A program made the translations under genes and the position numbers. From Candidatus Sigynarchaeum calidifontis (GTDB taxonomy: Archaea; Asgardarchaeota; Lokiarchaeia; Sigyniarchaeales; Sigyniarchaeaceae), in assembly GCA_030587475.2 (NCBI GenBank), contig JAUQYZ020000262.1:1-56128 (forward strand): a DNA stretch of 56,128 nt. Direction: 5' to 3'. Positions within the stretch are counted from its first letter, which is position 1; the number at the start of each line of letters is the position of its first letter. Of the stretch, positions 9,069-27,484 are shown piece after piece. Under the pieces are notes generated by a model. It made no database searches, was not told where the DNA came from, and saw nothing but the letters and a program-made list of their open reading frames with translations.

Positions 9069-10112
9069 CTAGAAATCCATCTCCTTGCTCGGCATCCGGG
9101 ACTTGAATTCCATAAGGCGACGACATATTTTCAAGTCTTTTGTGAACTGCGCATAGTGCTTCTCCGTGGCGAGCCGCACCTTCAATTGATCGAGATCGGT
9201 CTTGCTCGGGAACTCGCAAAACAAGAGTGTACGATGCACTCGTATCACGCCGAAAATCGCGGTGAGATCGAAGATTAATTCGCAAAATGACGCCGCGCTG
9301 CACTGATGAGTATCGATGCGTGCAGGGATCGTGAAAAGAAAGTATTCAACGTTCTCCATGACGCAAAAATCTTGCGATACACGGTCGGCAGTGAGGAAAA
9401 TCACGTCGGACTTGGATTGTGCCATGAATTGTTGAAGCTCTTTCAAGATGTACAGGTCTTTTTGTTCATAGGAGGGCGAACGTTTTTCGATCTCCGCTAC
9501 CGTGAAGGTTAACAACCGGTTTTTCTCACGCATTGCCAAGTAAGCGGCCTTCCGTGACCTTTTTTTCCTGTTATTTACCCAACCCTTGATTAGATCGGCG
9601 TTGAACCGGAGTCTCGACTTGATGTCGTCGATAGTGGCTTTATCATACTTGTGATTCATCGCGGTTTGGATCTCGTTGTATACAGTCGGCGCGAGCGGGA
9701 TTCGCTCCTTTGATAAGAACGATGCTTTCGAAGATAGGAACCCGTGGTACAGCAAGTTCGTGTCAGGCGAAAAAAAGACTCGCTGGTTCCTGTCCTTGTA
9801 ATCTTTATGCCGGCTCAAGAAGTCCGCGACGTTGTCGTATTGCATGCAGCCACTAGCGAGGAAACATTCCTTGAAATCTTGGTAACTGGGGAATTCCTCG
9901 GCGTGCTGCGGGATTTGCGTGGCAATCATATTGAAGTCAGGAGTGCCCACCTCGATCGCGTAACCGAGCCCCTCCGGCTTGGCCTTGAAGAGATGGAAAT
10001 CGTTGAAAAGAGGAAAAGAGACATCAAACCGGACCCTGTCATTGTCAGCAGATATCGAATTCAGCAGGAGCTGCATCTCGGCAGCCGTGATTTCGACGTC
10101 CAAGTCAGGCAT
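9069..10112 (-). CDS. PIN-domain ribonuclease with N- and C-terminal extensions
   Basis: PIN acidic motifs FSPDTNLLY, VYNEI, KDLYI, FLTADR; start overlaps the CARF stop (ATGCCTGA). Confidence 0.7.
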   Translation of the reverse strand: MPDLDVEITAAEMQLLLNSISADNDRVRFDVSFPLFNDFHLFKAKPEGLGYAIEVGTPDFNMIATQIPQHAEEFPSYQDFKECFLASGCMQYDNVADFLSRHKDYKDRNQRVFFSPDTNLLYHGFLSSKASFLSKERIPLAPTVYNEIQTAMNHKYDKATIDDIKSRLRFNADLIKGWVNNRKKRSRKAAYLAMREKNRLLTFTVAEIEKRSPSYEQKDLYILKELQQFMAQSKSDVIFLTADRVSQDFCVMENVEYFLFTIPARIDTHQCSAASFCELIFDLTAIFGVIRVHRTLLFCEFPSKTDLDQLKVRLATEKHYAQFTKDLKICRRLMEFKSRMPSKEMDF

Positions 10113-10593
10113 TTTTTACCGGTTCCTCCTTTTTTTCGATGAACAGCTTCAACGATTGCAATTGCATCGGGATCATGGCATACGGGAGGTTCACGTCCGT
10201 AATGGTTTTGATATCGAGGTAATAGATGTTGTCCACGTTCGCTTTCTCGATAGCGATCATGATGCCCGCCACGAGGGATTTCCGCCCCGGCGTGATATCG
10301 ATGTCGATATCATAACCAGCTTTTTTAAGTTGATTTATCAATTTGCTAATCTCTCGCCCCGCCACGGATGGATTGCCTTCTTCCACGATCATGTTCTCGA
10401 TTCTTGGTTTGAAACCGAATTCTTCAGTAAGGATTCGCACGCCTTCTTGCGTGAATTCAAGCTTGTCCTTGAACAGATCCTCGGTGACGATATAGATCAA
10501 CTCTGGCTTGATCGCCTTCTGCTGTAATACAGCATAGAGGGCGTTGATTAACCCCCAGATGCTTCTACCAAGTATGCTGACATATGCTCTCAA
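10105..10593 (-). CDS. Stand-alone CARF-domain protein
   Basis: N-terminal strand SILGRS, IYIVTE, CARF signature DIDITPGRK, IYYL; TTG start. Confidence 0.75.
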   Translation of the reverse strand: MRAYVSILGRSIWGLINALYAVLQQKAIKPELIYIVTEDLFKDKLEFTQEGVRILTEEFGFKPRIENMIVEEGNPSVAGREISKLINQLKKAGYDIDIDITPGRKSLVAGIMIAIEKANVDNIYYLDIKTITDVNLPYAMIPMQLQSLKLFIEKKEEPVKNA

Positions 10594-13257: not shown

Positions 13258-15021
13258 AAGGATATCGCTCGCGTCAAGGTTGAATGCCTCGTACACGATT
13301 CGATCTATCTCCGCCATTAGAGCCTTTAACCCAGATGGATGACTATTATAGGTTCTCACCACCAGGCTCGTTCCAAATTGCTCCAATATTTCGTCGACGA
13401 GCTCGATTAGGTTTGCGCGGGCCGAGGGGGTAAAGGTAGGGACGGGTAGTTCGGCCAATCCTTTCACGCCGACGTGAGGCGTAGCCTTCTTTCCCTTCCT
13501 GAGGATCTCGCGCTCGATGGCATAGAAAGTGATCGCACGGGAATTGAGTAGCGCGCACGCGATCTTGAGATCGTCCTCGCCGTGCTTGGGCTTTCCGACT
13601 AAAATCCCGTATGCAGAGTATAACCGGGTATTGAGATACGCTGCCTGAATGCCCTTGCTGGCTTCCGGAATGAAAAGCCTTGGGCCCTCGTAGCGATCGG
13701 GATCTCCAAGAACAAGGGTCTTTCCTTCATTTCGTAGCCTGCGTTCTTTTTCCCGGTCGAACACGAAATAGCCTTGAGATTCGTCCCACCACGCATGATA
13801 ACGCCCGACATGCCTGGCGTCGAGGATGATCTTCTCGTACCTTTCGTCACGAGCTGTTTTTGATAGAAAATGCTCTCTGCAACCGCCGATATTAAGACCG
13901 CGGTTAATTTGCAAGATATCCCCGAGCTTGTGTTCCGCGCGCTCCATTTTTTCGAGAATGGCCCCGTGGAAGGAATAGGTGAACTCGAGCCCCTTGTGTC
14001 GCATGAAATGGTTGATAGAAATCTGTACTTGATGGCTTGCAATGCTGGAGGCCAGCGACTTGGAACTCGTGGGTATGCCTTTCAACGAGCACCAGCGCAG
14101 CATGTAGTCGGAAGGTGGCTTTGTTTTAGAGAGGCACAAGATGGCACAGTCGACGACCGCATCGAATGGATCGATGTCGATCACGAGCCGGTTGACAATG
14201 CATGTCGAGAGGATGTGCGCGCGTGTTTTCCGGTATGACGGGAGGACACATAGCGTCTTGTTCACGACGTAGGATAGAACGCCGTTTTCTTTCAGTATTT
14301 TTATACCAAGTTCTATAAAAAGGTTCATCGCATTGATCCGCTGATGGTCTTGATTAAAAAGTTCGAAGTTCCGAAGCACGGAATGCTTTTCAGCCGAAAT
14401 CATTCGTGCAGGAGCGCTGCCATAATAAGACAAGTATGGTGGATTCGATACGACGATGTCAAAAAGGCCGAATCGAGTTATCTTCCCCATCTCTATCAAT
14501 GCATTCCCGACCACGAGATGAGAAGCCATAGAATCTTTTACATCCTCATTTTCGACAACCCCGGTGATGCGATTTGAATCGAGGATGGCTTTCCTAGCGG
14601 ATTCGATTGCCTTGGCGTTGACATCAATGCCATATAATGAATGATTTATGGCTGCTCGGTAGAAATCAACCGGTGTTGTTTCCTTTCCCGCAAATTTGCA
14701 AATTTTCAATCGTGCTCTCACGAGCTCTTCCAGCATCATGACGAGCATCACCCCATTCCCGACGGCAGGATCGATGACCGTTATATCACGAAGCATTGCA
14801 TCGATAGCATCGAGCCGGGATCTGAACGATGCGGGGGCATCCAGATTGCCATCGCTTTCGAGAAATCTTTCGGCATCTTCGAATGGAAGGGCAAATCGCC
14901 GAGAGATTATTCTCGCAAGGCTATCACGACATAAAAAGCGGGCAAGATATGGTGGCGTGTAGTAAATTCCAGCGGATCGCCTATGGCCACGATCTCGAAT
15001 GTTTGAAGGCTTTTCGTCCAT
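13222..15021 (-). CDS. TaqI-like gamma-class N6-adenine DNA methyltransferase
   Basis: GIYYTP, IDPAVGNGVML, VVSNPPY, ACALLNS. Confidence 0.85.
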   Translation of the reverse strand: MDEKPSNIRDRGHRRSAGIYYTPPYLARFLCRDSLARIISRRFALPFEDAERFLESDGNLDAPASFRSRLDAIDAMLRDITVIDPAVGNGVMLVMMLEELVRARLKICKFAGKETTPVDFYRAAINHSLYGIDVNAKAIESARKAILDSNRITGVVENEDVKDSMASHLVVGNALIEMGKITRFGLFDIVVSNPPYLSYYGSAPARMISAEKHSVLRNFELFNQDHQRINAMNLFIELGIKILKENGVLSYVVNKTLCVLPSYRKTRAHILSTCIVNRLVIDIDPFDAVVDCAILCLSKTKPPSDYMLRWCSLKGIPTSSKSLASSIASHQVQISINHFMRHKGLEFTYSFHGAILEKMERAEHKLGDILQINRGLNIGGCREHFLSKTARDERYEKIILDARHVGRYHAWWDESQGYFVFDREKERRLRNEGKTLVLGDPDRYEGPRLFIPEASKGIQAAYLNTRLYSAYGILVGKPKHGEDDLKIACALLNSRAITFYAIEREILRKGKKATPHVGVKGLAELPVPTFTPSARANLIELVDEILEQFGTSLVVRTYNSHPSGLKALMAEIDRIVYEAFNLDASDILSINNTVDALFK

Positions 15022-15025
15022 CGGG

Positions 15026-17656
15026 TCACCGTAAACCTGATTCTGTTTCGATCCGGTCGATCCATGGATGTTTTCTCATTGCCCCGATGAGATCTTGTAC
15101 CGCATCATCCGCATCCAGTTCGGAAACGACGCGAGTTATCGTTTCCTTGATGCTCGCTTCCAGTTGGTCAAGCGAATTACGTTCATCATTGTCCAACCTT
15201 TCCCCTCGCATCAGCTTCCAATGCAACCGCGACCACGCGTCGTATTCCACGGGAACCAGGTGCGGACGGATTGCATCCAAGAGTGCGTACCTGGCCTCGG
15301 GATGTGCCTTATCAGAGACAAGCTTTTCGTAAAAAAATATTTCATAGACGATGAAATCAATGAGAAAATGTAGGAATTTGTGGTACTGCACGGTCAGGTA
15401 TTTGACGATCTGCCGAAACTCGTCCCTATCGGGAAGCAAGAGGGGATATCGATTCTCGATGTCGGCGATCGTGTTCAACCGGATTTCTTGAAAGTTGGAA
15501 AAGCATTTGTTATGGTACCAGTCGAATAATTTGCTATTCCACGTCCCCAGGACCTCGATCAGGGTATCAAGGGAGCCGTGGTAAATACAGATGATCGACT
15601 TGATGGTGTACACGTCACCCACGAATGAAGCCTTGATCCTGCCTCGAAACGCCAGATTAACCCCGATCTTGCTGTTCTTGTAGAAATTTTTCTTGATCGC
15701 TGCGGGATCGATGAAATATACCGGGGGAAGCAATTTGAATGGGATCATCTCGCTTGCGGTGAATATCGGGATCAGGCCCTCCAGCCTTTTCAAGGAAAGT
15801 GCTTTCTTCCCAAGTTCCTCGCCGCGGGTCACTTCTAGCCCATAGGTTGCATGCGATTTGGCAACCCGTTCGATGTGTAGAACAATCGGGTCATCCTTGA
15901 ATAAGTCAAACGACGACACGGTTATCGCAGGAACCCGCCCGAGAAGAGCGGCTTTGTTGGGGATGAAAGTATAATTCCTGAATTCGAAACCATTATGCGA
16001 TTCCTTGTCGAAAAACGCGATCGCCACGGCGATGCTCACCCCAACAAAAATGCCTTCACCAAGATTGTCATAGGCGAGCAAGTGTTTAGTCATACGAGCA
16101 CCTATTTGCCGGTAAAAGCTGTACGGGATGATCAAGCCGGCAAGACCTCGACATATCTTCATAGCGCGAATGATAAAGGCCTCGTAGATGTCATCAGTAT
16201 TTTCATAAACTTTTCGAATGATTTCTTTCCCGATGATTTCTTTTTTAGCTTTCGAGGAAGAAAAACTCAAGTAAGGGGGATTTCCGATGATTATATCGAA
16301 GCCACCCCGCTGGAATATATCCGAAAACTCGATACCCCAATGGAAGGGTTGCAGCCCAACGATCTTTTGGTTCTCGTGCAAGTTAGAAAGATACAATGCG
16401 TCGAGGTAAATCCGTGCTTTTTTTCTCTCTGAAGGCGATCCTCGGCTTCGAGCGAATGCTTCGTTCAGCCGCATCTCGTGTATGGCGAGCTTGTTGGTGG
16501 ATTCATTTGAAGGGGTGATGAAACCGAGCAAGCTGTTTCCATTCTTGAGGTTATCATCGAGCGAAGGGAGTGTATCCCCTCGATCTACATCCAGGGCAGA
16601 AATAAGGCTCAAGGATAGCCGGAGCTTCGCAACCTCGACAGATCCAGGTTGCACGTCAACACCGAAGATACTGGAAAGGATCACGTGTCGTTTTATGTCA
16701 TAGACGCTCGAGCTTAAACGTGGTAGATCTGGATACTGGCTAAAACGAACATCGCGCGGGTCGACGTGTTTGAGACAAGCATAATAGAGCTCAACAATGA
16801 CGCGCTCAGCTTCAACTAGAAATGCGCCGGAACCGCATGCAGGGTCACATATGGTAACACGAGTTAGAATGTTAAAATAAAACCACGCAATTTGTTCCAA
16901 TTCATCAGGGGTAATGTTCGTTTTGTACAGCACTTCGCCGATGAAATCCCCGAAAGCTGTGTGGAAATGGCTATTTATCGCCCGCGTTGCATAGATCGCA
17001 ACGGTTTTCCGTGTTATATAATCCGTGATAAAAGCAGGCGTGTAATAGGTTCCACTTTCTTTGCGATTGCAACTCATCTCGAAGATATAACCAAGGATCG
17101 CGGGATTGATGCACGTGTTAGATGGGTCTGGACTTGTTTCTACAAGTTGCCATTCGTGTTGGTCGATCATTTCCAATACGGAACTCAGGGCGGCATCATC
17201 GATCTCGATCGCATCGATGATATCACCATTTTTATCCGTCTCGATTCCCGGGATTGGTCGAAAGACGTTTCCTCCGAGAAATGGCACGACCTTGAAGATC
17301 CCATCCACATCGGTTCGAGGGTGATTGGAATTCAAATAGGAAAACCAAACCGTGCAAAGAACTTTATAGAATGATTGAAATGAAGGTAGTGCGCCGACGC
17401 GATATCGCGCAAACAGATCTTGCACGTAACGGACAGGCAACACGGGAGGCAAATTTCCACGAGGAACCTGCAAGAACGTTGTGAAAAAAATTCGATTCAA
17501 GATGATGTCCGCGTAAACATCCGGCCTAAGCTGGAAAAGTTCATGATCGCTTTTTTCCTTGAAATGAATTGCTTTAATGAGAAGATTCCTAATGTTTTCG
17601 TGTTTTAAATGAAATTTCTCCACGATCAGGCGATTATCATGCACGTAACTGTTCAT
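15026..17656 (-). CDS. Eco57I-like gamma-class N6-adenine DNA methyltransferase
   Basis: VPFLGGNVF, LGYIFE, GTYYTP, CDPACGSGAFL, FDIIIGNPPY. Confidence 0.88.
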   Translation of the reverse strand: MNSYVHDNRLIVEKFHLKHENIRNLLIKAIHFKEKSDHELFQLRPDVYADIILNRIFFTTFLQVPRGNLPPVLPVRYVQDLFARYRVGALPSFQSFYKVLCTVWFSYLNSNHPRTDVDGIFKVVPFLGGNVFRPIPGIETDKNGDIIDAIEIDDAALSSVLEMIDQHEWQLVETSPDPSNTCINPAILGYIFEMSCNRKESGTYYTPAFITDYITRKTVAIYATRAINSHFHTAFGDFIGEVLYKTNITPDELEQIAWFYFNILTRVTICDPACGSGAFLVEAERVIVELYYACLKHVDPRDVRFSQYPDLPRLSSSVYDIKRHVILSSIFGVDVQPGSVEVAKLRLSLSLISALDVDRGDTLPSLDDNLKNGNSLLGFITPSNESTNKLAIHEMRLNEAFARSRGSPSERKKARIYLDALYLSNLHENQKIVGLQPFHWGIEFSDIFQRGGFDIIIGNPPYLSFSSSKAKKEIIGKEIIRKVYENTDDIYEAFIIRAMKICRGLAGLIIPYSFYRQIGARMTKHLLAYDNLGEGIFVGVSIAVAIAFFDKESHNGFEFRNYTFIPNKAALLGRVPAITVSSFDLFKDDPIVLHIERVAKSHATYGLEVTRGEELGKKALSLKRLEGLIPIFTASEMIPFKLLPPVYFIDPAAIKKNFYKNSKIGVNLAFRGRIKASFVGDVYTIKSIICIYHGSLDTLIEVLGTWNSKLFDWYHNKCFSNFQEIRLNTIADIENRYPLLLPDRDEFRQIVKYLTVQYHKFLHFLIDFIVYEIFFYEKLVSDKAHPEARYALLDAIRPHLVPVEYDAWSRLHWKLMRGERLDNDERNSLDQLEASIKETITRVVSELDADDAVQDLIGAMRKHPWIDRIETESGLR

Positions 17657-17821
17657 GGAAATCGTCGCTTGCCGGTCATATCTATTCAGCGATGAACGGA
17701 ATGATCTTATTCGTGATTATTGAAAGACTTGCTTTCGCTCACATTTTAAGGCAGCAACAAGCGAAGCTTATTTACACAGAGGGATACGGATAGAAAAAGG
17801 TAATTACTATAATATGGCGCG

Positions 17822-18979
17822 TTGCGATCTGTATTGGACAAGATAACGGAGTCTAATGAAACAAGCGGCCTAGGAAGGAAGCAGGCCGCTTATCAAGCTT
17901 TAAAATCAGGGAACCTTGAGAAAGCCAAGGATCTCTTCGAAAAATTGAGCCAATCATATCCGTGGGTAGCTTCATTCAAGTTTAACCTTGCTTTAACATG
18001 TTTCAAGCTCGGGCAACTCGAAAAGGCCCTGGATAACGTGAACGCAGGGCTTACCATCGAGCCTAACGATGAAAAAGCTATAAAGATGAAGCAGACCATC
18101 GAATCTCGAATTAAAAAAACGAATCTAGAACTGAAGCCCCCAGAACACCAGAAAAAACCGGCAATTGCCTTCGTTCGTAATCGTGACGATAATGAAACAA
18201 TAAAATGCATCCTGGAAGGAAAATTTCCGCGGAATGATGATTTACAGTTAAATCTAGGGACGGCGGCCTATTCGTCCCACGTAAACCGGGGGGAATACAG
18301 CTCGTCTCGTTTGATGAATTTCATTATCTTCGAAAAACAGCGACGTAGGGCGGAACTCAGGTCGATGTATGATAACCACATCGATGACGAATTACATCAA
18401 AACCGCATCTCATGGTTTTTCTCCGACCCAGACATGAACGAAAAAAACGACGTTTTCCCCAATAAATGCTTGTTCCACGCCCCTCCCGAGATCACGGCGG
18501 AATTCGTGGATAACTTGATGACGCGGATAGATCTATTACCGAGAGCCGAGGACACCATTTTCATGGACACGATGAAATCGAGATATTCATATGATATACA
18601 TTATATCAAGGATGCCATCAACGAGCTGCGTAGGTCAAATCAATATCAACAAGCCATTCAGGCGTCCGAGAAATATTTGGAACACTTTCCTGATGACTTG
18701 GAGATTCTTTTCTCGCTCGGTAATATGCATTTAGAGCGGGGAAATATCGTCCAGAGTGAGAAGTCGTTTAAAAAAATCGTGGAATTGTATTATGAGAACG
18801 CGTATGCTTGGTATAACCTTGCCAAGATATATGAAATCCAGGGGCTGTGGCAGTTTGAGGCTTTTTGTTTGCAACAAGCGAAAAACTTCGGCTATCAGAT
18901 AGACGAAATCCGGCTTGCTAGGTTGCTGTTAAAGGGAGTACCCATCGATCCGTTCACGGATAACGTGCATTGGGAATGA
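17822..18979 (+). CDS. Tetratricopeptide repeat protein (N- and C-terminal TPR clusters)
   Basis: FNLALTCFKLGQLEKA...P, FSLGNMHLERG, AWYNLAKIYE; stop overlaps the next ATG (ATGA). Confidence 0.75.
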   Translation: MRSVLDKITESNETSGLGRKQAAYQALKSGNLEKAKDLFEKLSQSYPWVASFKFNLALTCFKLGQLEKALDNVNAGLTIEPNDEKAIKMKQTIESRIKKTNLELKPPEHQKKPAIAFVRNRDDNETIKCILEGKFPRNDDLQLNLGTAAYSSHVNRGEYSSSRLMNFIIFEKQRRRAELRSMYDNHIDDELHQNRISWFFSDPDMNEKNDVFPNKCLFHAPPEITAEFVDNLMTRIDLLPRAEDTIFMDTMKSRYSYDIHYIKDAINELRRSNQYQQAIQASEKYLEHFPDDLEILFSLGNMHLERGNIVQSEKSFKKIVELYYENAYAWYNLAKIYEIQGLWQFEAFCLQQAKNFGYQIDEIRLARLLLKGVPIDPFTDNVHWE

Positions 18980-21714
18980 ATGACTCGTCGGTGCTGGCTT
19001 TGGGCCAAAATCTGGTAAAACGGAGTAGTCTTGATATCATTGAACGGTTCCTTGCCACACGGGGTTGTCAAATAGATCCAAGACCTTATCTTGAAAGCAT
19101 TCCCGTTTTTTCCAGCGATTACGCCAGCCTTCCCGAGGATATTGTCGAAAAAATTATCCGTGATTCATATGAAGACGCGAACCCCATCGTAAAATTGATA
19201 GCGGGGATGTTCGCAACTGAATTCAAGATTCATATTGGACGTGTCCAAAAGAACCAGATCAAGAAGTATATCGACTATGAGCGTGAAGAAGACCTTCAGA
19301 TGTTTGTAAAACTGATTGGTGATTGTAACATTGACGCAGAAATTATTAAAAAAAGAATTAATGAAATAATTAGAGCAAGATCGTCGATACTCGAACGAAG
19401 TATTCCTGTTTTTTGGAAAAATCTCGAAGATGCAATTACAAATGAAAATTTCGACAGAGTCAAGGATTATCTTGTTTTTCTATATTCACGATTGCTGGCC
19501 TTGAATGAAAACCGTAATATTTCCTTGCGCTTCTTGTTTCAACAAGAAAGCGAGTTGATACGAAAAGAACTCGTTTCTGGAGATGGAAGCAAATCCCGCG
19601 AAGACGATTATCTTGAGCTCGAGAAATTTTGCGAAAATCCCATCGTTGAAGATTATGCATCTATCGTTACGAAGTTCAACAAGAAATATTTAGACATTTT
19701 AGAGAAAGGGGATGACATTCTGGGCAAGAAATCACTCATATATATGAATCTGAACCAAGCATTGTTCGATACAAAAGGAAATAAAAGTGATTTTTTTGGC
19801 TATTTGTTTCATTGCTTAAAAAAAGCTTTCGATCTGCTTCGCAACCATCGAGTTCTCGCTATAAAGGTCGAGAACATCATCCATGCAGGCTTGAATTTGA
19901 AATGGGACATTTATGCCCAAATAACTATTTTCGCGGAAAAATTATTCCCGACGGGATTTAATAGGACTTATTACCGCGCGGAGGAGATATGTGCCGATGT
20001 TATCGAACACAAGATAGGTGAAAGGCTTTCAGACGAAAATCGAGAGCGCCTCAAGCAATTTTATTCCGAAGACCTTCAAAATACCAAAAGTCTTGAAGGA
20101 ATCTTTGCCCGGCCAGAGATTAAAAATACTATCGAGTTTTTCAAGAAACCCCTTGCTGGTTTTTCTTTCGTCGATTGCTATATACTTCAGAACGAGAAAG
20201 TTTTTGAAAATTCGAAGGAAATCAATTTTATTGAAAATAAAAACGAATTGTTACTGGTTTTTTACAAAAATGTTGTCGATGAAAGGAAGATTCCATGCCC
20301 AGTTTGTGGATCCTTGAAGATTTCCGGAAATTCATACACGGAAATCGGTGAAAAGAGCTGGGAATGTAAAAATCCGCTATGCGCTGAAAGGAGCAAGACG
20401 AACAGGGGAAAACGTTATTCTATGCGCACGATCTTTATGCAAGATTCATTGTTCGATTTCAGACCAGAAAACGTGGTTCCGAAAAGCCTCATTAAGGTCT
20501 GGCGCAAGGATTTCGTCGAGCACTGGTCCAATAAGCAGCTTTATGCGATGATTACCAAGTATTACACGTATCCAGGTGAAACAATCCTTGCGATTAACGT
20601 GCAAGACAACGACGAGTTCCAATCTGTCGCATCGCAAGAAAAGCGCAAAGTTGAAACCGTTGCATTCTCAGAATTCGTTCCGGAAAATGACTATGGAAAT
20701 GGCGCATGGGAAGAATTTCTCAATGGGCCGCTCTTTGCACAATTTGTTTACGAAAATTCCAAATCAAGATGGGCTTCCAATGAAATACGCCCTTTTCCCT
20801 TGATGACTGTTAAAAAAAATTCGATATGCATTGTTCAAGACGATTGCATAAGCGTGATGAGACAGATCGAGAAAGATACGATTCAAATCATGATCACTTC
20901 GCCCCCATATTATAATGCCCGTGAATATAGCCAGTGGACTAATTTGTACAATTATTTGAATGACATGTATCGCATGATCGTTCGTGCCAGGGAAATTCTC
21001 GTGCCGGGTGGCGTATTTTTTTACAACATTGGGGATGTCTATGATAACGAAAGGACAATAGTCAAATCAACGATGGGCAACAAAAGGATCCCACTTGGCG
21101 CATATATAATATTGCTATTCCAGAAAGCAGGATTCATATTACTTGACAACGTCGCCTGGTACAAAGGCGAGCCACAAAGCAACAGGCAAAAGAACGACGG
21201 GAACTTCGTCCCGTTTTATCAACGACCAACGAATTGTTATGAGCATATGTTCATTTTCAAGAAGCCAGGGAGTCTAAAGCTCGCGAGGGACAGATCGGGG
21301 AACAAGCTACGTTCCAACGTTCAAAAATTCAGTCCTGTCATCAAGATCGGAAAAGGCGGAATAAACAAGTATGGGCACACAGCACCATTCCCGCCAGAAT
21401 TGCCCTTGCTCGCAATAAATTGCTTTACGAACCCAGGTGAAGTAGTATTCGACCCATATTCAGGTAGTGGCACGACAGCCATCGCTGCAGCTATTTGCGG
21501 CCGCGTTGGTATGGGCACAGAAATCAACCCGGAATATGCTCGCTTGTCTATAAAGATGGCCTGGGAAAAAGGCCTGAGAGCCATACTTTTGAAACGCTCT
21601 AGCAAAGGAGATTTCATCAAAGAAGGAAATTTCCTTCCGGATGCCGTGCATACTCAAAAACAAACAACATTGTACTCGTTTGGTGAAAAAACAGTGGAAA
21701 AGAGAAAGCTATAA
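18976..21714 (+). CDS. Large beta-class (N4C/N6A) DNA methyltransferase: degenerate MTase copy, Cys4 zinc finger and intact MTase
   Basis: C-terminal ITSPPY ... HTAPFP ... FDPYSGSGTT; CPVC...CKNPLC; internal duplication. Confidence 0.85.
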   Translation: MNDSSVLALGQNLVKRSSLDIIERFLATRGCQIDPRPYLESIPVFSSDYASLPEDIVEKIIRDSYEDANPIVKLIAGMFATEFKIHIGRVQKNQIKKYIDYEREEDLQMFVKLIGDCNIDAEIIKKRINEIIRARSSILERSIPVFWKNLEDAITNENFDRVKDYLVFLYSRLLALNENRNISLRFLFQQESELIRKELVSGDGSKSREDDYLELEKFCENPIVEDYASIVTKFNKKYLDILEKGDDILGKKSLIYMNLNQALFDTKGNKSDFFGYLFHCLKKAFDLLRNHRVLAIKVENIIHAGLNLKWDIYAQITIFAEKLFPTGFNRTYYRAEEICADVIEHKIGERLSDENRERLKQFYSEDLQNTKSLEGIFARPEIKNTIEFFKKPLAGFSFVDCYILQNEKVFENSKEINFIENKNELLLVFYKNVVDERKIPCPVCGSLKISGNSYTEIGEKSWECKNPLCAERSKTNRGKRYSMRTIFMQDSLFDFRPENVVPKSLIKVWRKDFVEHWSNKQLYAMITKYYTYPGETILAINVQDNDEFQSVASQEKRKVETVAFSEFVPENDYGNGAWEEFLNGPLFAQFVYENSKSRWASNEIRPFPLMTVKKNSICIVQDDCISVMRQIEKDTIQIMITSPPYYNAREYSQWTNLYNYLNDMYRMIVRAREILVPGGVFFYNIGDVYDNERTIVKSTMGNKRIPLGAYIILLFQKAGFILLDNVAWYKGEPQSNRQKNDGNFVPFYQRPTNCYEHMFIFKKPGSLKLARDRSGNKLRSNVQKFSPVIKIGKGGINKYGHTAPFPPELPLLAINCFTNPGEVVFDPYSGSGTTAIAAAICGRVGMGTEINPEYARLSIKMAWEKGLRAILLKRSSKGDFIKEGNFLPDAVHTQKQTTLYSFGEKTVEKRKL

Positions 21715-21769
21715 CTTGTCGAAAAATGGTTCTCTGATAGGTTTTTATAGGTCAATGGAATTTTGAGGC

Positions 21770-23284
21770 ATGCCGATTAAAATCCTTTTTATAGAGCCAT
21801 CGTTACCTTATGATAATCCGGTTTTCGAGCACGAGATCCCTATTCATGTGGTTCATCTTGCAAATTTTTTGATGGAAAAAATATATCCTAAGCCAAATAT
21901 CGAATTTTTAGATCTCGAATGGGAACGAAAAATCGACATTTCTTTCGATCCATTCAACGTCGTGCAAATTGAAAAGCTTATCATGAGGACAATCGACCAT
22001 TCGTTCAATTTCACGCGTGATGATCGCTTTTTCGTGCTAATATCTTGTTTTTTCACGTATCAATATCTTTCATCCAAAGCCGTACTCGAAGCTATCCAGA
22101 ATTTGCGTAAAGATCATTCTATTGATGTTTGTAAGGTCATTATCGGGGGTTATCATCCCACCATTCTCCCAGACGATTTTCACAATCTAGGCGCGGATTG
22201 CGTGATCCGTGGGGAAGGAGAACTCGCTTTGCTGGAAGTTTTATCACGGAATGGAAATCAATCACCCTATACTGAGATCATCGAAGGAAATATCGTCCGG
22301 GATCTCGATTTGCTTCCCCCTATTGATTTTTCGGTCTATGATAAATATATACCATATTACAAGCATCTTTCTATCACCCTCTCCCGAGGGTGCCCATTCA
22401 ACTGCAATTTCTGCATCGAGAAGAAGTACAAGGCATTCAAGTGCGAAAAAGCTGCCTGGAGGGCCTATTCACCGAGTAGGGCGATTGTGGAGATAAAAAA
22501 TGTCATAAAGTCTTCTGAAAGCATGTTAAAAGAAGGAGATAAACAAATTGGTTTTTACGATCCAATCTTTGGATTTAACGAGCTTTGGTTAGGAAAAGTG
22601 TTGGATTTCCTCCGTGATGGGAATTGCGGCTACCATTTTTGGGCAGAAACGCGCATCGACTCGTTCAAGGTAGAAAGTATACCCGCCATGAAAGCTGCAA
22701 ACGTTTCGTTGATGCTCGGCTTGGAGTCGGGATCACCGAAAATGTTACAGCTCATGAACAAAACAAATGATCCAAAGGGTTTTCTCAACAAACTGGAATG
22801 CATTTTAAATCGAGGTAAAGAAATGAATTACGGGCCGTTTGTTTTGAACTTGATGTTCAATTTTCCCGGAGAAACACCTAATTCCCTCCGGGAGACATTC
22901 GCGTATCTCGACCGGCTCGTCGACACGTGTGGAAACTTCACGGCGGGATCAAATTTCTACAACTTCTTTCCCGGGGACGCAATATTCGCCAACATTGGGA
23001 CGTGGGAAAAGGAACACGGAACGAAGATTCATTTCAAGGAATGGTGGAAATCTCAAGAAACGGCCACCGCGGGCCACGTTCTTGATGCAAGTCGCGATCT
23101 GACGATCCGAGATTCCATCATTCTCGTTCACGAAGGTATGAAGGCTTTTTTCGAGCACGTGATGATGAACGAGGCAAACATTGCCAAGAAGTTTTTTATT
23201 GCTAATAAAATGGCTTTTGAGGTCAAGGTCTTCAAGAAATGGCTTCTCACGATCGACAATCTCTTGCATTGTTATGCCCGTTGA
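21770..23284 (+). CDS. Cobalamin-binding radical SAM protein (class B methylase-like)
   Basis: IIGGYHPT, VIRGEGE, SRGCPFNCNFC, GLESGS, FPGET. Confidence 0.88.
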   Translation: MPIKILFIEPSLPYDNPVFEHEIPIHVVHLANFLMEKIYPKPNIEFLDLEWERKIDISFDPFNVVQIEKLIMRTIDHSFNFTRDDRFFVLISCFFTYQYLSSKAVLEAIQNLRKDHSIDVCKVIIGGYHPTILPDDFHNLGADCVIRGEGELALLEVLSRNGNQSPYTEIIEGNIVRDLDLLPPIDFSVYDKYIPYYKHLSITLSRGCPFNCNFCIEKKYKAFKCEKAAWRAYSPSRAIVEIKNVIKSSESMLKEGDKQIGFYDPIFGFNELWLGKVLDFLRDGNCGYHFWAETRIDSFKVESIPAMKAANVSLMLGLESGSPKMLQLMNKTNDPKGFLNKLECILNRGKEMNYGPFVLNLMFNFPGETPNSLRETFAYLDRLVDTCGNFTAGSNFYNFFPGDAIFANIGTWEKEHGTKIHFKEWWKSQETATAGHVLDASRDLTIRDSIILVHEGMKAFFEHVMMNEANIAKKFFIANKMAFEVKVFKKWLLTIDNLLHCYAR

Positions 23285-23347
23285 ACTTCCGTGCAAGATG
23301 GGAACTATCGAATATCCAAGTGATTGATCGTTCTATTAATAAGATAG

Positions 23348-25048
23348 TTGAAAACCCATCCTGCCAACCATCATTCTATACCTATGCCCACTAGTAATAA
23401 GACACTAGACGCGTTCCTTGGCATAACGAGCAAGACGCGGGAGAGCGAGAAGATCGATATAAAGCGGACGCTCGACCTAGAGGGATTTCCAGATAATGAA
23501 TGGACCTTCAAGGTCGCTAACACGAACGAGTTCACCCATCTCATTTTCCACGAGTACCCAGCACGCATGATACCGCAAGTTGCCCGCAAACTCATCAAGC
23601 TGTACTACCCTCACTATGAAAATAAAGACCACAAGAAGCCGATGTTGGATCCCTTCGGTGGATCAGGTACGAGTTGTGTCGAGGCGATGTTGCGGAACAT
23701 TGATTCCATCGCGTTCGATCTCAACCCGCTGGCTAACATAATACAGAAAGTGAAGACAACACCCATCGATCCGGTTATCCTGAATCACCACCTGGCGTTG
23801 ATCATGCACATCGTGGCCGAAGAGCGAGGGAAAACGTTTCCCGAGATCGTTCCAGCCGTGCCCCAAATCCGGTTTTGGTTCAGTGATCGAGTAATCTCCG
23901 AGCTTTCCGCCATCAAGCATGCCATTTCCACGTCCTTTCCTGAACAAACTGGTGAACGGGAAATTACGACGCAATTGAGAAATTTTTTCCTTGTTTGTCT
24001 TGGAAAAACTGCCCGGGATTGTTCATACCAGCGCAAGGGTGAAAACAAGACATATCGCATTCAAAGGGAAAAGATCGCGGATTTTAACACCAAGGTAAAT
24101 GCAATCTCGCGATTCAAGCAAGTTGCTCAAGAATACATAACAGCTATGGATTCTTATTATTCGTATATCAAGCAAAACAAGTTCACGGCAAGTTGCAAGC
24201 CTGTATTAGGCAATTCCATATTTTTAGAAGGAATAGCAGATAATTCCATAGACCTCGTCGTCACGAGCCCGCCCTATGGGGACAGCCACACGACCGTAGC
24301 GTATGGGCAGTTTTCGAGGTTCCCGCTTGAGTGGATCCTACCGGATACGACGCGGGTGAAGGATATCGACTCGCAGCTCCTCGGAGGCATTGAAAACGAT
24401 GCGGAATTCCCTGAATCCCGATTATTGCTTGAAACTTGCAAGAGTATCATGATCGCGCAGGCACGACAGCAAAAAACCTTGATACTAGCACATTTAAATG
24501 CAATTGAACCTAGCGACCTCGCGGATGTAAAGTTGGAAATGAAAGAACTCGATAATTTTATCAGCGGCGTGGAATCCGCCATCTCTCATGCAGTCGATTT
24601 CCAGGAATTTGCACGTATAAAGAAAGATTACTTTTCACGGCTCGCGAGCGCGCGCTCGGCTGGAACCAAGGGGAACAAGTGGCTTGATGGCCAGGCCCTC
24701 GGGAAGACCGGGCATTTTAAGATATACAGCGACCGCATAGGCTTCGTGCTTTCGTTCTTTGCCGATTTTTCAAAGGTGCTAGCACGCCTCTTCCAAGTAC
24801 TCGATGGCAATCGAAAATGCTGCATCGTCATTGGCAACCGGACGGTTAAAAACGTTAAAATTCCTACAGATCGCATCATAATCGAGCTTGCAAATAATCT
24901 TGGATTTGAACACGTGGATTCATTTCACCGCGACATCCCGAACAAGCGCATGCCATTAAGCAATTCACCATCCAACGTGCCTGGCGAGTTGTCACCCACG
25001 ATGGACAAAGAGATCATCGTTGTACTCAACAAACCTTTTTCTAAATGA
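23348..25048 (+). CDS. Alpha-class DNA methyltransferase, probably N4-cytosine
   Basis: HEYPARMIPQ, LDPFGGSGTS precedes VVTSPPYGDS, IVIGNRTV; true start may be ATG 23384. Confidence 0.85.
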   Translation: MKTHPANHHSIPMPTSNKTLDAFLGITSKTRESEKIDIKRTLDLEGFPDNEWTFKVANTNEFTHLIFHEYPARMIPQVARKLIKLYYPHYENKDHKKPMLDPFGGSGTSCVEAMLRNIDSIAFDLNPLANIIQKVKTTPIDPVILNHHLALIMHIVAEERGKTFPEIVPAVPQIRFWFSDRVISELSAIKHAISTSFPEQTGEREITTQLRNFFLVCLGKTARDCSYQRKGENKTYRIQREKIADFNTKVNAISRFKQVAQEYITAMDSYYSYIKQNKFTASCKPVLGNSIFLEGIADNSIDLVVTSPPYGDSHTTVAYGQFSRFPLEWILPDTTRVKDIDSQLLGGIENDAEFPESRLLLETCKSIMIAQARQQKTLILAHLNAIEPSDLADVKLEMKELDNFISGVESAISHAVDFQEFARIKKDYFSRLASARSAGTKGNKWLDGQALGKTGHFKIYSDRIGFVLSFFADFSKVLARLFQVLDGNRKCCIVIGNRTVKNVKIPTDRIIIELANNLGFEHVDSFHRDIPNKRMPLSNSPSNVPGELSPTMDKEIIVVLNKPFSK

Positions 25049-25054
25049 ACGTCG

Positions 25055-27484
25055 TTAGGAACCGATGTTCAAACGCGCAGCCACGATCTTGTCTATTTTG
25101 GCAATGATGTCGTTTGAAAGGTCGATGGCTCGTACCATGGCTTGAAAATGACGAATGTCGCTGGCTTCCAAGGTTTTACCAATCCTATCATCAAGCCACT
25201 TGCGCAAAACTGCGTATTTCCCGACGTGAAAATCATAGACATCTTCATGAATTGGAAAGAAATATCGTCGCGTGTTGATGTGCAATCGTTCATCGTGAAA
25301 ACGGCTTCCGTGCATTTTTTCAACCGTGTTCGATCCCGTACCTTCGATGCCGCAAGCTGAATTGAAACTGTCCTTTTCCAGCTCTAACAAGTGCAGCAAG
25401 ATCAGCGCCCTTCCAAGCGCACGTAGCTCGCCAAAAAACACCTTGTCTTCCACGAGAGGGACACGTGGTGTCCCTCCTTTCAAGCACGCATTAAATTTTC
25501 GCTTGAACGAGGGGGACCAGAGAATGGCATAGATATAGCCTATCGTTCCTGGAAGATCGTTCTCATCTAACGGGGCTCCCATCCGAGAAGAATAATCCTG
25601 GTAAAGTCTCGATAGGTTCCACGATGTCGTGCCATCGGATGCAATAACGCGAACCGGAAACAAGTAACAATTTGTAGAACTGGTATTCGACAAGAAAATG
25701 ACATCCGTGAAAGCATTAGCGACGAACACGTGGTGAAAATCTCGATCCTTGACGAGCTTGGTAGTCAGCAGTATTAAATTGCCTTCATAACATTGCTGCT
25801 TGGCTTTAATAACCGGACGTGTCCACGCGCGCCGGTCGAAGTAGACGAATCTCACGTCGAATGGCCGGTAGTTGTAACGGATGACCTGGCGCGCATCAAC
25901 CCATAGCGAGGGCGCGTTGCGCAATATTTTTCGCTTGGCTTCTGTCAGACGATGCATTTCTGTATCTTTCGAGGCTTGTAAGAAAAATGCTTTGATCTTG
26001 CGCATCGAGCTATCCCGATCAAAGGAAACAAGCAATTCATCATCGCCCGGCTTTCCCCCAACGCTGTGAAATTTCAATATGTCTTCGATGGACGTGAAAG
26101 AACAATATTCATCTAATACTGTATCATCCGCTTTTTCAGGGGAAAAAGCGAGCAACGGCTCACGAGGATGCTCTATCAAGTGCCACGGGATGCTATGCAA
26201 GTCGTTCGCATCGAGCCAGGCGAGTTTTTCCCCCTTGGTGCCAAAAATCTCGTGATGGTATATTACATGCCGACGTGTAGTCCCATTTCTCGCTTTCAAA
26301 GCGATGAAAATACAAGTACCTTGCTGGATCGGGAAAATATTTTGGTTGACGATGCCAGATGGAACATCTTCTTGGATTTTTGCATTTCCGTGAAGGTCGA
26401 GAATGTATAATTCATCGAAAGAAGCCAGCAAGGAACGCCTCATCCCGCGAAAGATGGGACCCTTAAGAAACGTGTGGTTTACGACGAATCCAAGGATGCC
26501 GAACCCGTTCCGGTCGATTATATCTTGTCCGAATCTGATGAACTTGATATAGTCATCGGACAGCGCTTGAATGTTTTTATCCCCCCTCACGCCCTCCTTG
26601 TACGCGCCCAGTAACGTGTCGATGCGCGTTATCTTGTTCTGGGACGCACGGGAATAGGGCGGGTTACCAATGATTATGGAGAAACCATCAAGAAATGCGG
26701 GATCTTGCTCGAAGGCATTTCCCTCGATGAAAGCAGGGCAGATTTGCTTTGTCTTGAATTTCCGAGAATCCATGATCCGCAACGCGCATCGCATCTGGGC
26801 CAAAGCAAGGGGAACGGGCATTAAATCGATCCCCACGACACGGGGAATGCGCTGGCACGCGTGTTTTTCCAAATGATCAAGCACGTGTAAGAGAAATGTT
26901 CCCGTACCAGTTGCGGGATCAAGTACCTGGATGCCCGCACGTCCATCGACGATGGATCCGTCGGCCAATCCGTCCACGAATCCGAGTTTCTCCTTGAGCA
27001 AGGCATCGACCATGCGCACGATGAACCGAGCGACTGGGTTCGGCGTGTAAAAAACCCCACGTTTGCTTTTCTCGCGAGGTGCATACATTCGCAGGAATCG
27101 CTCGTGGATGTTCGAGATAGCATCATCAAGGCTGCCTGAAAGCTCATTTTTTTTGAGATCGCGTTCTAGGTCGACGTATTTCATAAACTCGGCCAAGGCA
27201 GATGTAGCCCGGGAAATTTCCGCGTTAATGTGCAAAAAATCCCCGCTCGAAAATATTCGTGCACGTCGCAATCGATCGAGAAAGTTTCCATCGCCAAGGA
27301 AACCATCCAGTAGTTCAACCACGTCTTGCTTCACCACGCCGGTGATTTTTGCATTCAGCAGCCCATACACGATACCTTGCGCCGCCAGGTCACTAATGTC
27401 TTCGCCAGCGCCATGAGAATCGATTATACTCTTGATTAACAGCGCGCATTCGGCCATTCGATTAGCAATATTTTCCAGGCTCAC
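25055..27484 (-). CDS. Type ISP-like N6-adenine methyltransferase plus specificity domain (no helicase or nuclease visible)
   Basis: RGVFYTP, LDPATGTGTFL, IIGNPPY, DDYIKFIR, LDLHG, YRPFD, YIYAIL, VLRKWLDDR. Confidence 0.85.
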   Translation of the reverse strand: MSLENIANRMAECALLIKSIIDSHGAGEDISDLAAQGIVYGLLNAKITGVVKQDVVELLDGFLGDGNFLDRLRRARIFSSGDFLHINAEISRATSALAEFMKYVDLERDLKKNELSGSLDDAISNIHERFLRMYAPREKSKRGVFYTPNPVARFIVRMVDALLKEKLGFVDGLADGSIVDGRAGIQVLDPATGTGTFLLHVLDHLEKHACQRIPRVVGIDLMPVPLALAQMRCALRIMDSRKFKTKQICPAFIEGNAFEQDPAFLDGFSIIIGNPPYSRASQNKITRIDTLLGAYKEGVRGDKNIQALSDDYIKFIRFGQDIIDRNGFGILGFVVNHTFLKGPIFRGMRRSLLASFDELYILDLHGNAKIQEDVPSGIVNQNIFPIQQGTCIFIALKARNGTTRRHVIYHHEIFGTKGEKLAWLDANDLHSIPWHLIEHPREPLLAFSPEKADDTVLDEYCSFTSIEDILKFHSVGGKPGDDELLVSFDRDSSMRKIKAFFLQASKDTEMHRLTEAKRKILRNAPSLWVDARQVIRYNYRPFDVRFVYFDRRAWTRPVIKAKQQCYEGNLILLTTKLVKDRDFHHVFVANAFTDVIFLSNTSSTNCYLFPVRVIASDGTTSWNLSRLYQDYSSRMGAPLDENDLPGTIGYIYAILWSPSFKRKFNACLKGGTPRVPLVEDKVFFGELRALGRALILLHLLELEKDSFNSACGIEGTGSNTVEKMHGSRFHDERLHINTRRYFFPIHEDVYDFHVGKYAVLRKWLDDRIGKTLEASDIRHFQAMVRAIDLSNDIIAKIDKIVAARLNIGS

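What the first reader, a model, noticed from the sequence alone, without database searches (positions are those of the whole stretch)
18976..21714. Single-chain pseudo-MTase + zinc finger + active MTase (METTL3/METTL14-like logic)
Seen: a collinear internal duplication, about 19720-20660 versus 20820-21570. SLIYMNLNQ aligns with QIMITSPPY; LKKAFDLLRNHRVLAIKVENI with IVRAREILVPGGVFFYNIGDV; AGFSFVD with AGFILLD; NELLLVFYK with YEHMFIFKK; YTYPGETILAINVQDND with FTNPGEVVFDPYSGSGT. The first copy has lost both the catalytic SPPY and the Gly-rich SAM loop, and carries a CPVC...CKNPLC finger (20296-20382) where the TRD would be. Established: beta-class MTases act as dimers with divided labour, and METTL3-METTL14 pairs an active and an inactive subunit. 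Inference: an intramolecular pseudo-dimer in which the dead half recognises the substrate. This is an analogy, not a claim of orthology.
Basis: partly seen in the sequence, partly recalled or inferred. Interest (0 to 1): 0.78.

Follow-up and report, generated by a model that had tools for sequence, protein, structure and literature searches.

The report
Single-chain dead-plus-live DNA methyltransferase
This archaeal gene encodes a DNA methyltransferase that carries a second, catalytically dead copy of its own enzyme fold; the dead copy alone kept the zinc-finger DNA-recognition module, so an enzyme class that normally works as a two-subunit pair has become one asymmetric chain.

Summary
The gene at 18976-21714 (+) encodes 912 aa from the ATG. 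It has three parts:
- an all-helical N-terminal domain (aa 1-235) with no known fold match;
- a degenerate beta-class methyltransferase (MTase) domain, N2 (aa ~248-568), with a Cys4 zinc ribbon in the target-recognition position;
- an intact SPPY beta-class MTase domain (aa ~617-866).

Direct N2-versus-C comparison is not significant (BLASTP E 1.6; hhalign P 0.025). Three independent lines still establish the duplication.
1. The N2 model (pLDDT 87.7) matches only beta-class MTases (TTHA0409, Z 16.9).
2. Single-domain, active, zinc-ribbon MTases of ~415 aa bridge the two halves (hhalign E 2e-47 to N2, 3e-98 to C).
3. The two halves are predicted to pack (ipSAE 0.88; best control 0.02).

The losses are complementary. 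N2 lost SPPY and the Gly loop but kept the zinc ribbon. C kept the catalytic motifs but lost the ribbon. This fits the division of labour known for beta-class dimers, here fixed in one chain.

The family is widespread in archaea and bacteria and is already catalogued as a Type II MTase, but I found no description of the dead half. That the dead half recognises the target is inferred, not shown. Verdict: new variant of a known kind.

The parts
18976..21714 (+). Whole gene: 912 aa from the ATG (914 aa from the TTG at 18970), a two-domain beta-class DNA methyltransferase
   Evidence: ORF list and translation. Database twin P0002 is 912 aa. PADLOC Type II MTase model PDLC03236 matches aa 238-871 at E 7e-164. 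The ATG overlaps the stop of the upstream TPR gene as ATGA.
18970..19674 (+). N1: all-helical N-terminal domain (aa 1-235), function unknown
   Evidence: AlphaFold model with pLDDT 90.1. No convincing PDB match: VIA best Z 6.7, Foldseek best E 0.55. Conserved at 26-79% identity across the 53-member family.
19711..20673 (+). N2: catalytically dead beta-class MTase fold (aa ~248-568). Motif IV is replaced by N-[ILV]-x-Q (aa 260-263). The Gly-rich SAM loop is replaced by I-N-x-E/Q-D (aa 542-546).
   Evidence: Fold matches. hhalign to the active single-domain family gives E 2.3e-47. Motif census.
20296..20382 (+). Cys4 zinc ribbon (C443, C446, C466, C471) inside N2, followed by the invariant basic stretch RSKTNRGKRYS (aa 474-484) and WRKD (aa 511-514). 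It sits in the TRD position.
   Evidence: Invariant columns. Two short strands between beta7 and the motif-X helix in the model. The same module occurs in the TRD position of active ~415-aa MTases.
20674..20817 (+). Poorly conserved linker between the two MTase folds (aa ~569-616)
   Evidence: The consensus is mostly undefined here. The last ~10 residues of the N2 model have low pLDDT.
20818..21567 (+). C: intact beta-class amino-MTase domain (aa ~617-866) with motif IV SPPY (aa 644-647) and motif I DPYSGSGT (aa 828-835). It has no zinc ribbon.
   Evidence: Pfam PF01555 at E 7.4e-33, aa 638-861. TTHA0409 (PDB 2zie) at E 3.4e-21. hhalign to the single-domain family gives E 3.4e-98, with a gap exactly at their zinc ribbon.
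17822..18979 (+). Upstream TPR protein gene whose stop overlaps the MTase ATG; a conserved neighbour in Asgard relatives
   Evidence: Pfam TPR hits. ATGA overlap. A TPR gene lies directly upstream in L001, L084 and the P0009 contig.

Best explanation
The gene encodes a DNA amino-methyltransferase, probably forming N4-methylcytosine given its SPPY motif. It descends from a single-domain, zinc-ribbon-bearing beta-class MTase by tandem duplication followed by complementary loss. The N-terminal copy (N2) lost motif IV and the SAM loop but kept the zinc-ribbon/basic module in the TRD position. The C-terminal copy kept the SAM-binding and catalytic motifs but lost the zinc ribbon. The two copies pack against each other as an intramolecular pseudo-dimer, with matching helices facing each other, which replaces the homodimer that beta-class MTases need.

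Mechanism, by step:
- Shown by computation: both folds, their common ancestry, the motif losses, and a confident predicted interface.
- Inferred: the zinc ribbon and basic stretch of the dead half bind and position the DNA target while the live half flips and methylates the base. This would be the division of labour seen in EcoP15I Mod2, made permanent in one chain.
- Inferred: one SAM is bound per chain.

In this genome the enzyme has no cognate nuclease and sits in a multi-MTase island. Some relatives are paired with a putative PD-(D/E)xK-type restriction enzyme.
For: Fold of N2: model pLDDT 87.7, pTM 0.87. The top Foldseek and VIA hits are exclusively beta-class MTases (2zig E 2.6e-5; 2zie_A Z 16.9, 184 aligned, rmsd 3.3; next unrelated fold Z ~7).

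Common ancestry: active single-domain relatives (SPPY at ~110, DPFxGSxT near the C-end, the same zinc ribbon) match the N2 profile at E 2.3e-47 over N2 31-305. They match the C profile at E 3.4e-98, with a gap exactly at the ribbon. BLASTP of P0262 hits N2 at E 6e-30 and C at E 4e-51, with an overlapping query segment.

Motif loss is family-wide. The C-domain motifs are invariant.

Packing: ipSAE 0.88 (runs 0.89, 0.88, 0.88) against a best control of 0.02. That mark was reached by 58 of 80 solved complexes and 2 of 110 mismatched pairs. At least 95% of contacts agree between runs, and the partner pLDDT is 86. The lowest-error contacts pair N2 residues 77-85 with C-domain residues 110-115, which are the aligned helices of the two copies.

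Single origin: two-domain (67) and single-domain (59) sequences are split by one branch (SH-aLRT 100) in both the catalytic-domain tree and the zinc-module tree.

Fixed architecture: all 10 relatives scanned carry PF01555 only at the C-end, out of 217 N2-profile hits.

Precedent: beta-class MTases are held to be obligate dimers with division of labour between subunits (PMC7544214).

DNA as substrate: relatives L002-L004 and 56 single-domain loci are linked to a conserved protein with an IDE..DF...QVK motif, typical of PD-(D/E)xK nucleases.
Against: - No biochemical data exist for any family member that I could find.
- The direct N2-versus-C comparison is not significant; homology rests on the fold and on bridge sequences.
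- The complex prediction may score high from memory of solved beta-class homodimers and METTL3-METTL14. I could not inspect coordinates, so I did not test whether the geometry matches known dimers or whether the ribbon reaches the catalytic cleft.
- The zinc-ribbon module is nearly invariant across archaea and bacteria. That fits either one shared target sequence or a generic, non-specific DNA clamp, rather than a specificity determinant.
- The role of the 235-aa N1 domain is unexplained.
- SPPY suggests but does not prove m4C.
Confidence: 0.68

Rival explanations
1. The dead N2 domain is only a structural stand-in for the second subunit. It stabilises the catalytic domain and fills the dimer interface. 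DNA recognition is done by loops of the catalytic domain and/or by the helical N1 domain, and the zinc ribbon is a non-specific DNA clamp or a purely structural element.
For: In CcrM, target recognition is by loops of the catalytic core (text quoted from PMC10406627). The zinc module is almost invariant across very distant hosts, which is unusual for a specificity element. N1 is conserved and unexplained.
Against: The catalytic copy lost the ribbon while the dead copy kept it under strong constraint: 25 of the 31 invariant N2 columns lie between P207 and D279. This is what one expects if the ribbon is needed once per functional unit. Invariance is also expected if the whole family shares one target, and it does share one putative nuclease family.
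Confidence: 0.22
2. The N2 domain keeps a ligand- or base-binding pocket and acts as a reader or regulator, for example sensing a methylated or flipped base, or SAM/SAH, rather than being a passive recognition module.
For: Residues around the former active site stay conserved in N2: Q263 is nearly invariant at the motif-IV tyrosine position, N292-H293 are invariant, and the NH(R/K) motif is shared with the active single-domain relatives.
Against: The Gly-rich loop and both motif-IV prolines are gone in all members. W312 and neighbouring conserved residues lie in the predicted interface, so at least part of the conservation can be structural. There is no direct evidence of a pocket.
Confidence: 0.08
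3. The resemblance of N2 to an MTase is convergent or a modelling artefact, and the N-half is an unrelated DNA-binding domain.
For: Direct sequence comparison is not significant. There is no Pfam hit in the N-half.
Against: N2 scores Z 16.9 against TTHA0409, which is also the best sequence match of the C-domain. The bridge family matches N2 at E 2.3e-47 and C at E 3.4e-98. A single query segment aligns to both halves.
Confidence: 0.02

Closest known systems
EcoP15I Mod2 (Type III) and other beta-class amino-MTase homodimers (M.PvuII, M.RsrI, M1.MboII, TTHA0409, CcrM, M.BceJIV)
   Same: Same fold class and motif order (IV before I). These enzymes are thought to require dimerisation, and in EcoP15I one subunit recognises the DNA while the other methylates (PMC7544214). 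TTHA0409 is the best structural match of N2 and the best sequence match of C.
   Different: Those are two identical, fully functional chains. Here the two copies are fused, and each has irreversibly lost one of the two functions.
Single-domain zinc-ribbon SPPY MTases of ~410-460 aa (e.g. L018:7440-8684, L015:7539-8765, L026:7332-8663)
   Same: They carry the same zinc ribbon, RSK(A/T)NRGKR(F/Y)S stretch and KKWR(R/K)D module at the same position, the same NH(R/K) motif as N2, and the same catalytic motifs as C.
   Different: They have one domain with everything intact, presumably act as homodimers, and are nearly always followed by a ~210-aa putative PD-(D/E)xK nuclease gene (56 loci). They look like the ancestral state.
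METTL3-METTL14 and ciliate MTA1-MTA9 (MT-A70 clade)
   Same: They pair an active and a degenerate beta-class MTase paralogue, and the dead partner is needed for substrate binding. Both appear among the N2 fold matches at Z 8.7-10.6.
   Different: They are separate polypeptides in a different sequence family, mostly eukaryotic, and act on RNA or need extra DNA-binding subunits. The zinc fingers of METTL3 lie in the active subunit, outside the MTase fold (PMC7544214). This is analogy, not orthology.
PRMT7 (protein arginine methyltransferase)
   Same: One chain carries two tandem MTase modules derived by duplication. They fold into a homodimer-like unit, one module cannot bind SAM, and a zinc-finger motif is present (PMC8399567).
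   Different: It is an unrelated substrate class (protein arginine), eukaryotic, and the dead module is the C-terminal one. There is no nucleic-acid recognition.
Fused double MTases with two active halves (e.g. the M1-M2 fusion of MhoVII)
   Same: Two MTase modules lie in one polypeptide within Type II R-M systems (abstract of PMC12898733).
   Different: There both halves are reported to be active, with complementary methylation activities. Here one half is dead.

Membership tests
Beta-class amino-MTase (Pfam PF01555 N6_N4_Mtase): C-terminal domain | Pfam model matched above the gathering score | tested here: met
   114.8 bits against a cut-off of 26.7, aa 638-861, full model length.
Beta-class amino-MTase (Pfam PF01555 N6_N4_Mtase): C-terminal domain | Motif IV (D/N/S)PP(Y/F) lies N-terminal to motif I (FxGxG-type SAM loop) | tested here: met
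   SPPY at aa 644-647 and DPYSGSGT at aa 828-835. S644, P645, P646, Y647, D828, P829, G832 and S833 are invariant in 53 homologues.
Beta-class amino-MTase: N2 domain (aa 248-568) | Permuted Rossmann-like MTase fold | tested here: met
   VIA Z 16.9 to 2zie_A. The top 20 hits are all beta-class or MT-A70 enzymes. Foldseek probability is 1.00.
Beta-class amino-MTase: N2 domain (aa 248-568) | Catalytic motif IV (D/N/S)PP(Y/F/W) | tested here: not met
   The position reads N-L-N-Q (family N-[ILV]-x-Q). 0 of 53 members and 0 of 180 two-domain relatives carry the motif.
Beta-class amino-MTase: N2 domain (aa 248-568) | Gly-rich SAM-binding loop after strand beta1 | tested here: not met
   The loop reads I-N-V-Q-D-N-D. 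Only 1 of 53 members has GxG there. There is no Pfam hit in the N-half of any of 11 proteins scanned.
Type II restriction-modification system | A cognate restriction endonuclease gene next to the MTase | tested here: not met
   No homologue of the relatives' putative nuclease in the window (tblastn). None was found in the 89%-complete own genome with this one query. Relatives L002-L004 do have it within two genes.
MT-A70 / METTL3-METTL14 heterodimer | Membership of the MT-A70 sequence family, with two separate paralogous subunits | tested here: not met
   No MT-A70 Pfam hit. The similarity is fold-level only, Z 8.7-10.6, below the N6_N4 enzymes. The two halves are one chain. Analogy only.
N4-cytosine-specific MTases | Product is N4-methylcytosine | not testable with these tools
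   SPPY is the motif IV of the structurally characterised N4CMT, against DPPY in the adenine enzyme CcrM (PMC10406627). The motif alone does not settle the target base.

The most novel reading that the evidence does not exclude
The family records the moment when an obligate homodimeric DNA methyltransferase became a hard-wired asymmetric single chain. Because each copy lost what the other kept, it would show that in the ancestral homodimer only one TRD and one active site, from opposite subunits, work on a given target. The dead pocket, with its conserved N-x-x-Q and NH(R/K) residues, may also have been re-used to hold the orphaned or opposite-strand base. That would make the enzyme strand-selective on an asymmetric site.
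Probability: 0.2. Interest if true: 0.8.

Novelty: new variant of a known kind. Interest (0 to 1): 0.62.

Why it matters
The proposal that beta-class amino-MTases must dimerise and split recognition from catalysis between subunits rests on a few structures (PMC7544214). This family offers a natural test. It is a single chain in which the split is fixed by complementary loss. Its likely ancestor, an intact single-domain zinc-ribbon MTase, still exists in many bacteria and some archaea.

Such a fused enzyme would be convenient for structural work, for measuring one-site SAM stoichiometry, and for engineering, because recognition and catalysis lie on separable modules. The result also gives a fold and an origin to a ~330-aa stretch that has no Pfam domain in hundreds of proteins annotated only as "site-specific DNA-methyltransferase". 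It is a worked example of homology that direct comparison misses and bridge sequences recover.

Tried and rejected
- Direct self-comparison by BLASTP and by profile-profile hhalign gave nothing significant, so sequence alone does not prove the duplication.
- NCBIfam gave only sub-threshold hits of the ribbon to transposase-type zinc-binding domains (E 0.02-0.07, below cut-offs). I did not use them.
- A search of 1.84 billion proteins with the N2 profile listed only full-length relatives and shorter proteins or fragments matching parts of N2. No other architecture showed among the 10 relatives scanned. The single-domain bridge family came from the genome scan.
- Natural two-gene (split) versions were sought. 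L082 (552 aa + 314 aa) has the halves in different frames, with a conserved IIIGD..VL segment stranded between a stop and the ATG. L083 (650 aa + 186 aa) is cut inside the catalytic domain. Both look like disrupted genes, not clean splits.
- The N1 domain matched no fold: VIA best Z 6.7 over ~60 residues and Foldseek best E 0.55.
- The putative nuclease partner had no Pfam hit, only marginal PADLOC hits (E 0.0016) and no PDB sequence hit.
- A plasmid search with the single-domain MTase returned only generic annotations.
- Literature searches found no description of a fused dead-plus-live beta-class DNA MTase. The library is incomplete, so this is not proof of absence.
- A nuclease role for the N-half (a fused R-M enzyme) was considered and dropped. 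N2 is an MTase fold, N1 is helical with no nuclease motif seen, and relatives carry a separate nuclease-like gene.
Full report
**What is there.** The window carries one long ORF at 18970-21714 on the + strand. A database twin, P0002, is 100% identical over the region searched and 912 aa long. That fits the ATG at 18976, which overlaps the stop codon of the upstream TPR gene as ATGA. Pfam sees a single domain, N6_N4_Mtase (PF01555), at aa 638-861 (E 7.4e-33). Nothing is seen in the first 630 residues. The PADLOC model PDLC03236 ("Type II methyltransferase", 912 positions) matches aa 238-871 at E 7e-164. Proteins of this architecture are therefore already catalogued as Type II MTases. The best solved relative of the C-terminal domain is TTHA0409 of Thermus thermophilus (2zie, E 3.4e-21).

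**Checking the duplication directly.** BLASTP of aa 230-600 against aa 601-914 finds nothing (best E 1.6). I collected 190 homologues. The listed ones are almost all ~820-925 aa and carry PF01555, apart from a few shorter ones. I aligned 53 of them (A1), cut the alignment into N1 (1-235), N2 (236-600) and C (601-880), and ran hhalign. N2 against C gives P 0.025 and probability 1.9%. That is no better than the controls: N1 vs C gives P 0.086 and N1 vs N2 gives P 0.028. Sequence alone gives a hint, not proof.

**Fold evidence.** An AlphaFold model of aa 236-600, built on 53 sequences, is confident (pLDDT 87.7, pTM 0.87). Its order of elements is strand, helix, strand, helices, beta hairpin, two short ribbon strands, helices, strand, helix, strand. 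Foldseek against the PDB returns only beta-class amino-MTases at the top: TTHA0409 (E 2.6e-5), the Mod subunit of Mbo45V, M.BceJIV, M.MboIIA, M.RsrI and M.PvuII, then MTA1 and METTL3. An aligner that does not depend on Foldseek, run against 48,161 representative chains, gives 2zie_A at Z 16.9 (184 aligned, rmsd 3.3, model residues 13-333). It is followed by 19 further N6_N4 or MT-A70 enzymes. Unrelated folds begin at Z ~7. The N-half therefore has the permuted MTase fold, and its best match is the same protein that best matches the catalytic half.

**Bridge sequences.**
- A genome-collection scan with the N2 alignment returned 80 loci.
- Eight loci (L001-L008) encode full two-domain proteins and seven encode shorter two-domain forms.
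- Fifty-eight encode single-domain proteins of ~400-480 aa. These have SPPY near residue 110, a DPFxGSxT loop near the C-end, and the same zinc ribbon plus RSK(A/T)NRGKR(F/Y)S and KKWR(R/K)D between them.
- One of these, P0262, aligns to the C-domain at E 4e-51 and 2e-20, and to N2 aa 397-517 at 46% identity (E 6e-30). Its residues 188-232 align to both N2 397-433 and C 721-765.
- At profile level, N2 matches the single-domain family at E 2.3e-47 (N2 31-305 against positions 120-354). C matches it at E 3.4e-98, with a gap exactly where the single-domain proteins have the ribbon.
- N2 also shares the NH(R/K) motif with the single-domain enzymes, where C has GG.

This establishes that N2 and C are paralogous copies of one domain.

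**Complementary loss.**
- In N2 the motif IV position reads N-L-N-Q (family N-[ILV]-x-Q), and the loop after strand beta1 reads I-N-V-Q-D-N-D.
- None of 53 members has (D/N/S)PP(Y/F/W) there. One has GxG. None of 180 two-domain-sized relatives has a second motif IV.
- In C, SPPY and D828, P829, G832 and S833 are invariant, but the zinc ribbon is missing.
- The most conserved part of N2 is the ribbon and the basic stretch after it.
- Trees of the catalytic domain and of the zinc module each separate the 67 two-domain from the 59 single-domain sequences by one branch (SH-aLRT 100). This fits a single origin of the fusion. The trees are unrooted and used the quick search.
- A single crossover cannot produce the single-domain form from the two-domain form. 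The simplest history is therefore an intact zinc-ribbon MTase that duplicated in tandem and then subfunctionalised. This last step is inference.

**Do the halves pack?** I folded N2 and C as two chains with their alignments.
- The score was ipSAE 0.88 (three runs: 0.89, 0.88, 0.88), against a best control of 0.02.
- That mark was reached by 58 of 80 solved complexes and 2 of 110 mismatched pairs.
- The runs agree in at least 95% of contacts, and the partner pLDDT is 86.
- The lowest-error contacts pair N2 residues 77-85 with C-domain residues 110-115. These two helices align with each other, so like faces like, as in a two-fold dimer.
- The beta6/beta7 hairpins and part of the ribbon region (N2 221-224, 251-280) also touch C.
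- Caveats: solved homodimers of this class and METTL3-METTL14 exist, so the pass may partly reflect memory. I could not inspect coordinates.

**Mechanism.** The review of beta-class amino-MTases argues that they work only as dimers. It cites EcoP15I Mod2, in which one subunit recognises the DNA and the other methylates it (PMC7544214). The most likely reading is that this protein is that arrangement fused into one chain. The dead N2 supplies the zinc-ribbon/basic DNA-binding module, and the live C-domain binds SAM and methylates. The folds, the ancestry, the motif losses and the predicted interface are shown by computation. Target recognition by the ribbon, one SAM per chain and a monomeric state are inferred.

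SPPY is the motif IV of a structurally characterised N4-cytosine enzyme, against DPPY in the adenine enzyme CcrM (PMC10406627). I therefore favour m4C, at moderate confidence.

One caution concerns the ribbon. It is nearly invariant across very distant hosts. That suits either one shared target sequence or a non-specific clamp.

**Rest of the protein and surroundings.**
- N1 (aa 1-235) is a confident all-helical domain (pLDDT 90.1) with no convincing PDB match. Its role is open.
- The gene lies in a lower-GC stretch (41-48% against 51-58% in most of the flanks). This stretch holds five other DNA MTase genes, a TPR gene and a B12-binding radical SAM gene.
- Four Asgard-type loci share a TPR gene directly upstream and a 554-566-aa MTase downstream: the window, L001, L084 and the P0009 contig. 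The radical SAM gene is present only in the window and L001.
- The single-domain MTases are followed, in 56 loci, by a ~200-240-aa gene on the same strand. Longer homologues of that gene sit within two genes of the two-domain MTase in L002-L004.
- Its consensus (IDE..DF, a Cys4 insert, then RfiQVKTSeG) looks like a PD-(D/E)xK nuclease. It has no Pfam hit, only marginal PADLOC hits, and no PDB hit.
- It is absent from the window and was not found in the 89%-complete own genome with this one query. Here the enzyme appears to be an orphan.

**Distribution.** Two-domain forms occur in:
- Promethearchaeota (Lokiarchaeia), Sigynarchaeota, Hel- and Hodarchaeales, Woesearchaeota, Poseidoniales and Aciduliprofundum;
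- Patescibacteria, Bacteroidota, Bacillota, cyanobacteria and others.

This patchy spread is typical of mobile R-M genes. In Aciduliprofundum the gene lies near genes with weak integrase and TraG-type ATPase hits.

**Comparison with known systems and novelty.** The C-domain is an ordinary member of PF01555. N2 has the fold but fails both motif tests, so it is a pseudo-enzyme paralogue. METTL3-METTL14 and MTA1-MTA9 share the live-plus-dead logic but are separate chains of another family. PRMT7 shares the single-chain tandem architecture with one dead module, but in protein arginine methylation (PMC8399567). Fusions of two active MTases are known (PMC12898733). I found no description of a fused dead-plus-live beta-class DNA MTase, within the limits of the held library. 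I rate this a new variant of a known kind. It is of solid interest to the R-M and methyltransferase field, chiefly because the ancestral and derived states both survive and the division-of-labour idea becomes directly testable.

Noticed in passing
L018:7440-9388 (also L026:7332-9298, L029:7440-9319 and about 50 more loci): Single-domain zinc-ribbon SPPY MTases are followed on the same strand, often overlapping, by a conserved ~200-240-aa ORF. Its consensus (IDE..DF, a Cys4 insert, RfiQVKTSeG) looks like a PD-(D/E)xK nuclease. It has no Pfam hit, only marginal PADLOC hits, and no PDB hit. This is a candidate undescribed Type II R-M pair, very common in Poribacteria.
   Followed up: partly
window 17822-18979 (+) and 18976-18979: The stop of the TPR gene overlaps the MTase ATG as ATGA, which suggests translational coupling. 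A TPR gene sits directly upstream of the two-domain MTase in three other Asgard-type loci (L001, L084, P0009 contig). It may be a functional partner.
   Followed up: partly
window 10657-27484; L001; L084: The multi-MTase island is syntenic across Asgard-type genomes: Eco57I-like gamma enzymes, a 554-566-aa PF01555-related MTase, and the two-domain MTase. The gene between the two-domain MTase and the 554-566-aa MTase varies. It is a B12 radical SAM gene in the window and L001, a 224-aa class I MTase in the P0009 contig, and nothing in L084.
   Followed up: partly
L084:3731-4993: An OrfB_IS605 / Cas12f1-like TnpB gene is inserted inside the MTase island of a Lokiarchaeia relative, just upstream of the TPR gene.
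   Followed up: no
L082:741-3492 and L083:4001-6521: These are apparent split versions of the two-domain MTase (552 + 314 aa; 650 + 186 aa). In L082 the halves are in different frames, and a conserved IIIGD..VL segment is stranded between a stop codon and the ATG. They look like disrupted genes or assembly errors, not natural heterodimers.
   Followed up: yes
window 18970-19674 (aa 1-235): This is a confidently modelled all-helical N-terminal domain (pLDDT 90.1). It is conserved across the full-length two-domain family and has no PDB fold match (best Z 6.7). The shorter two-domain subfamily (744-827 aa) has a smaller N-terminal region.
   Followed up: partly
L085:1-14550: The Aciduliprofundum homologue lies among genes with weak phage-integrase and TraG/AAA_10-type ATPase hits. 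This suggests that the MTase travels on an integrated mobile element there.
   Followed up: no
window 9069-10593 (-): Two ORFs at the edge of the island (347 aa and 162 aa) have no Pfam hit at E 0.001. An earlier first-reader note called them CARF plus PIN. I did not test this.
   Followed up: no
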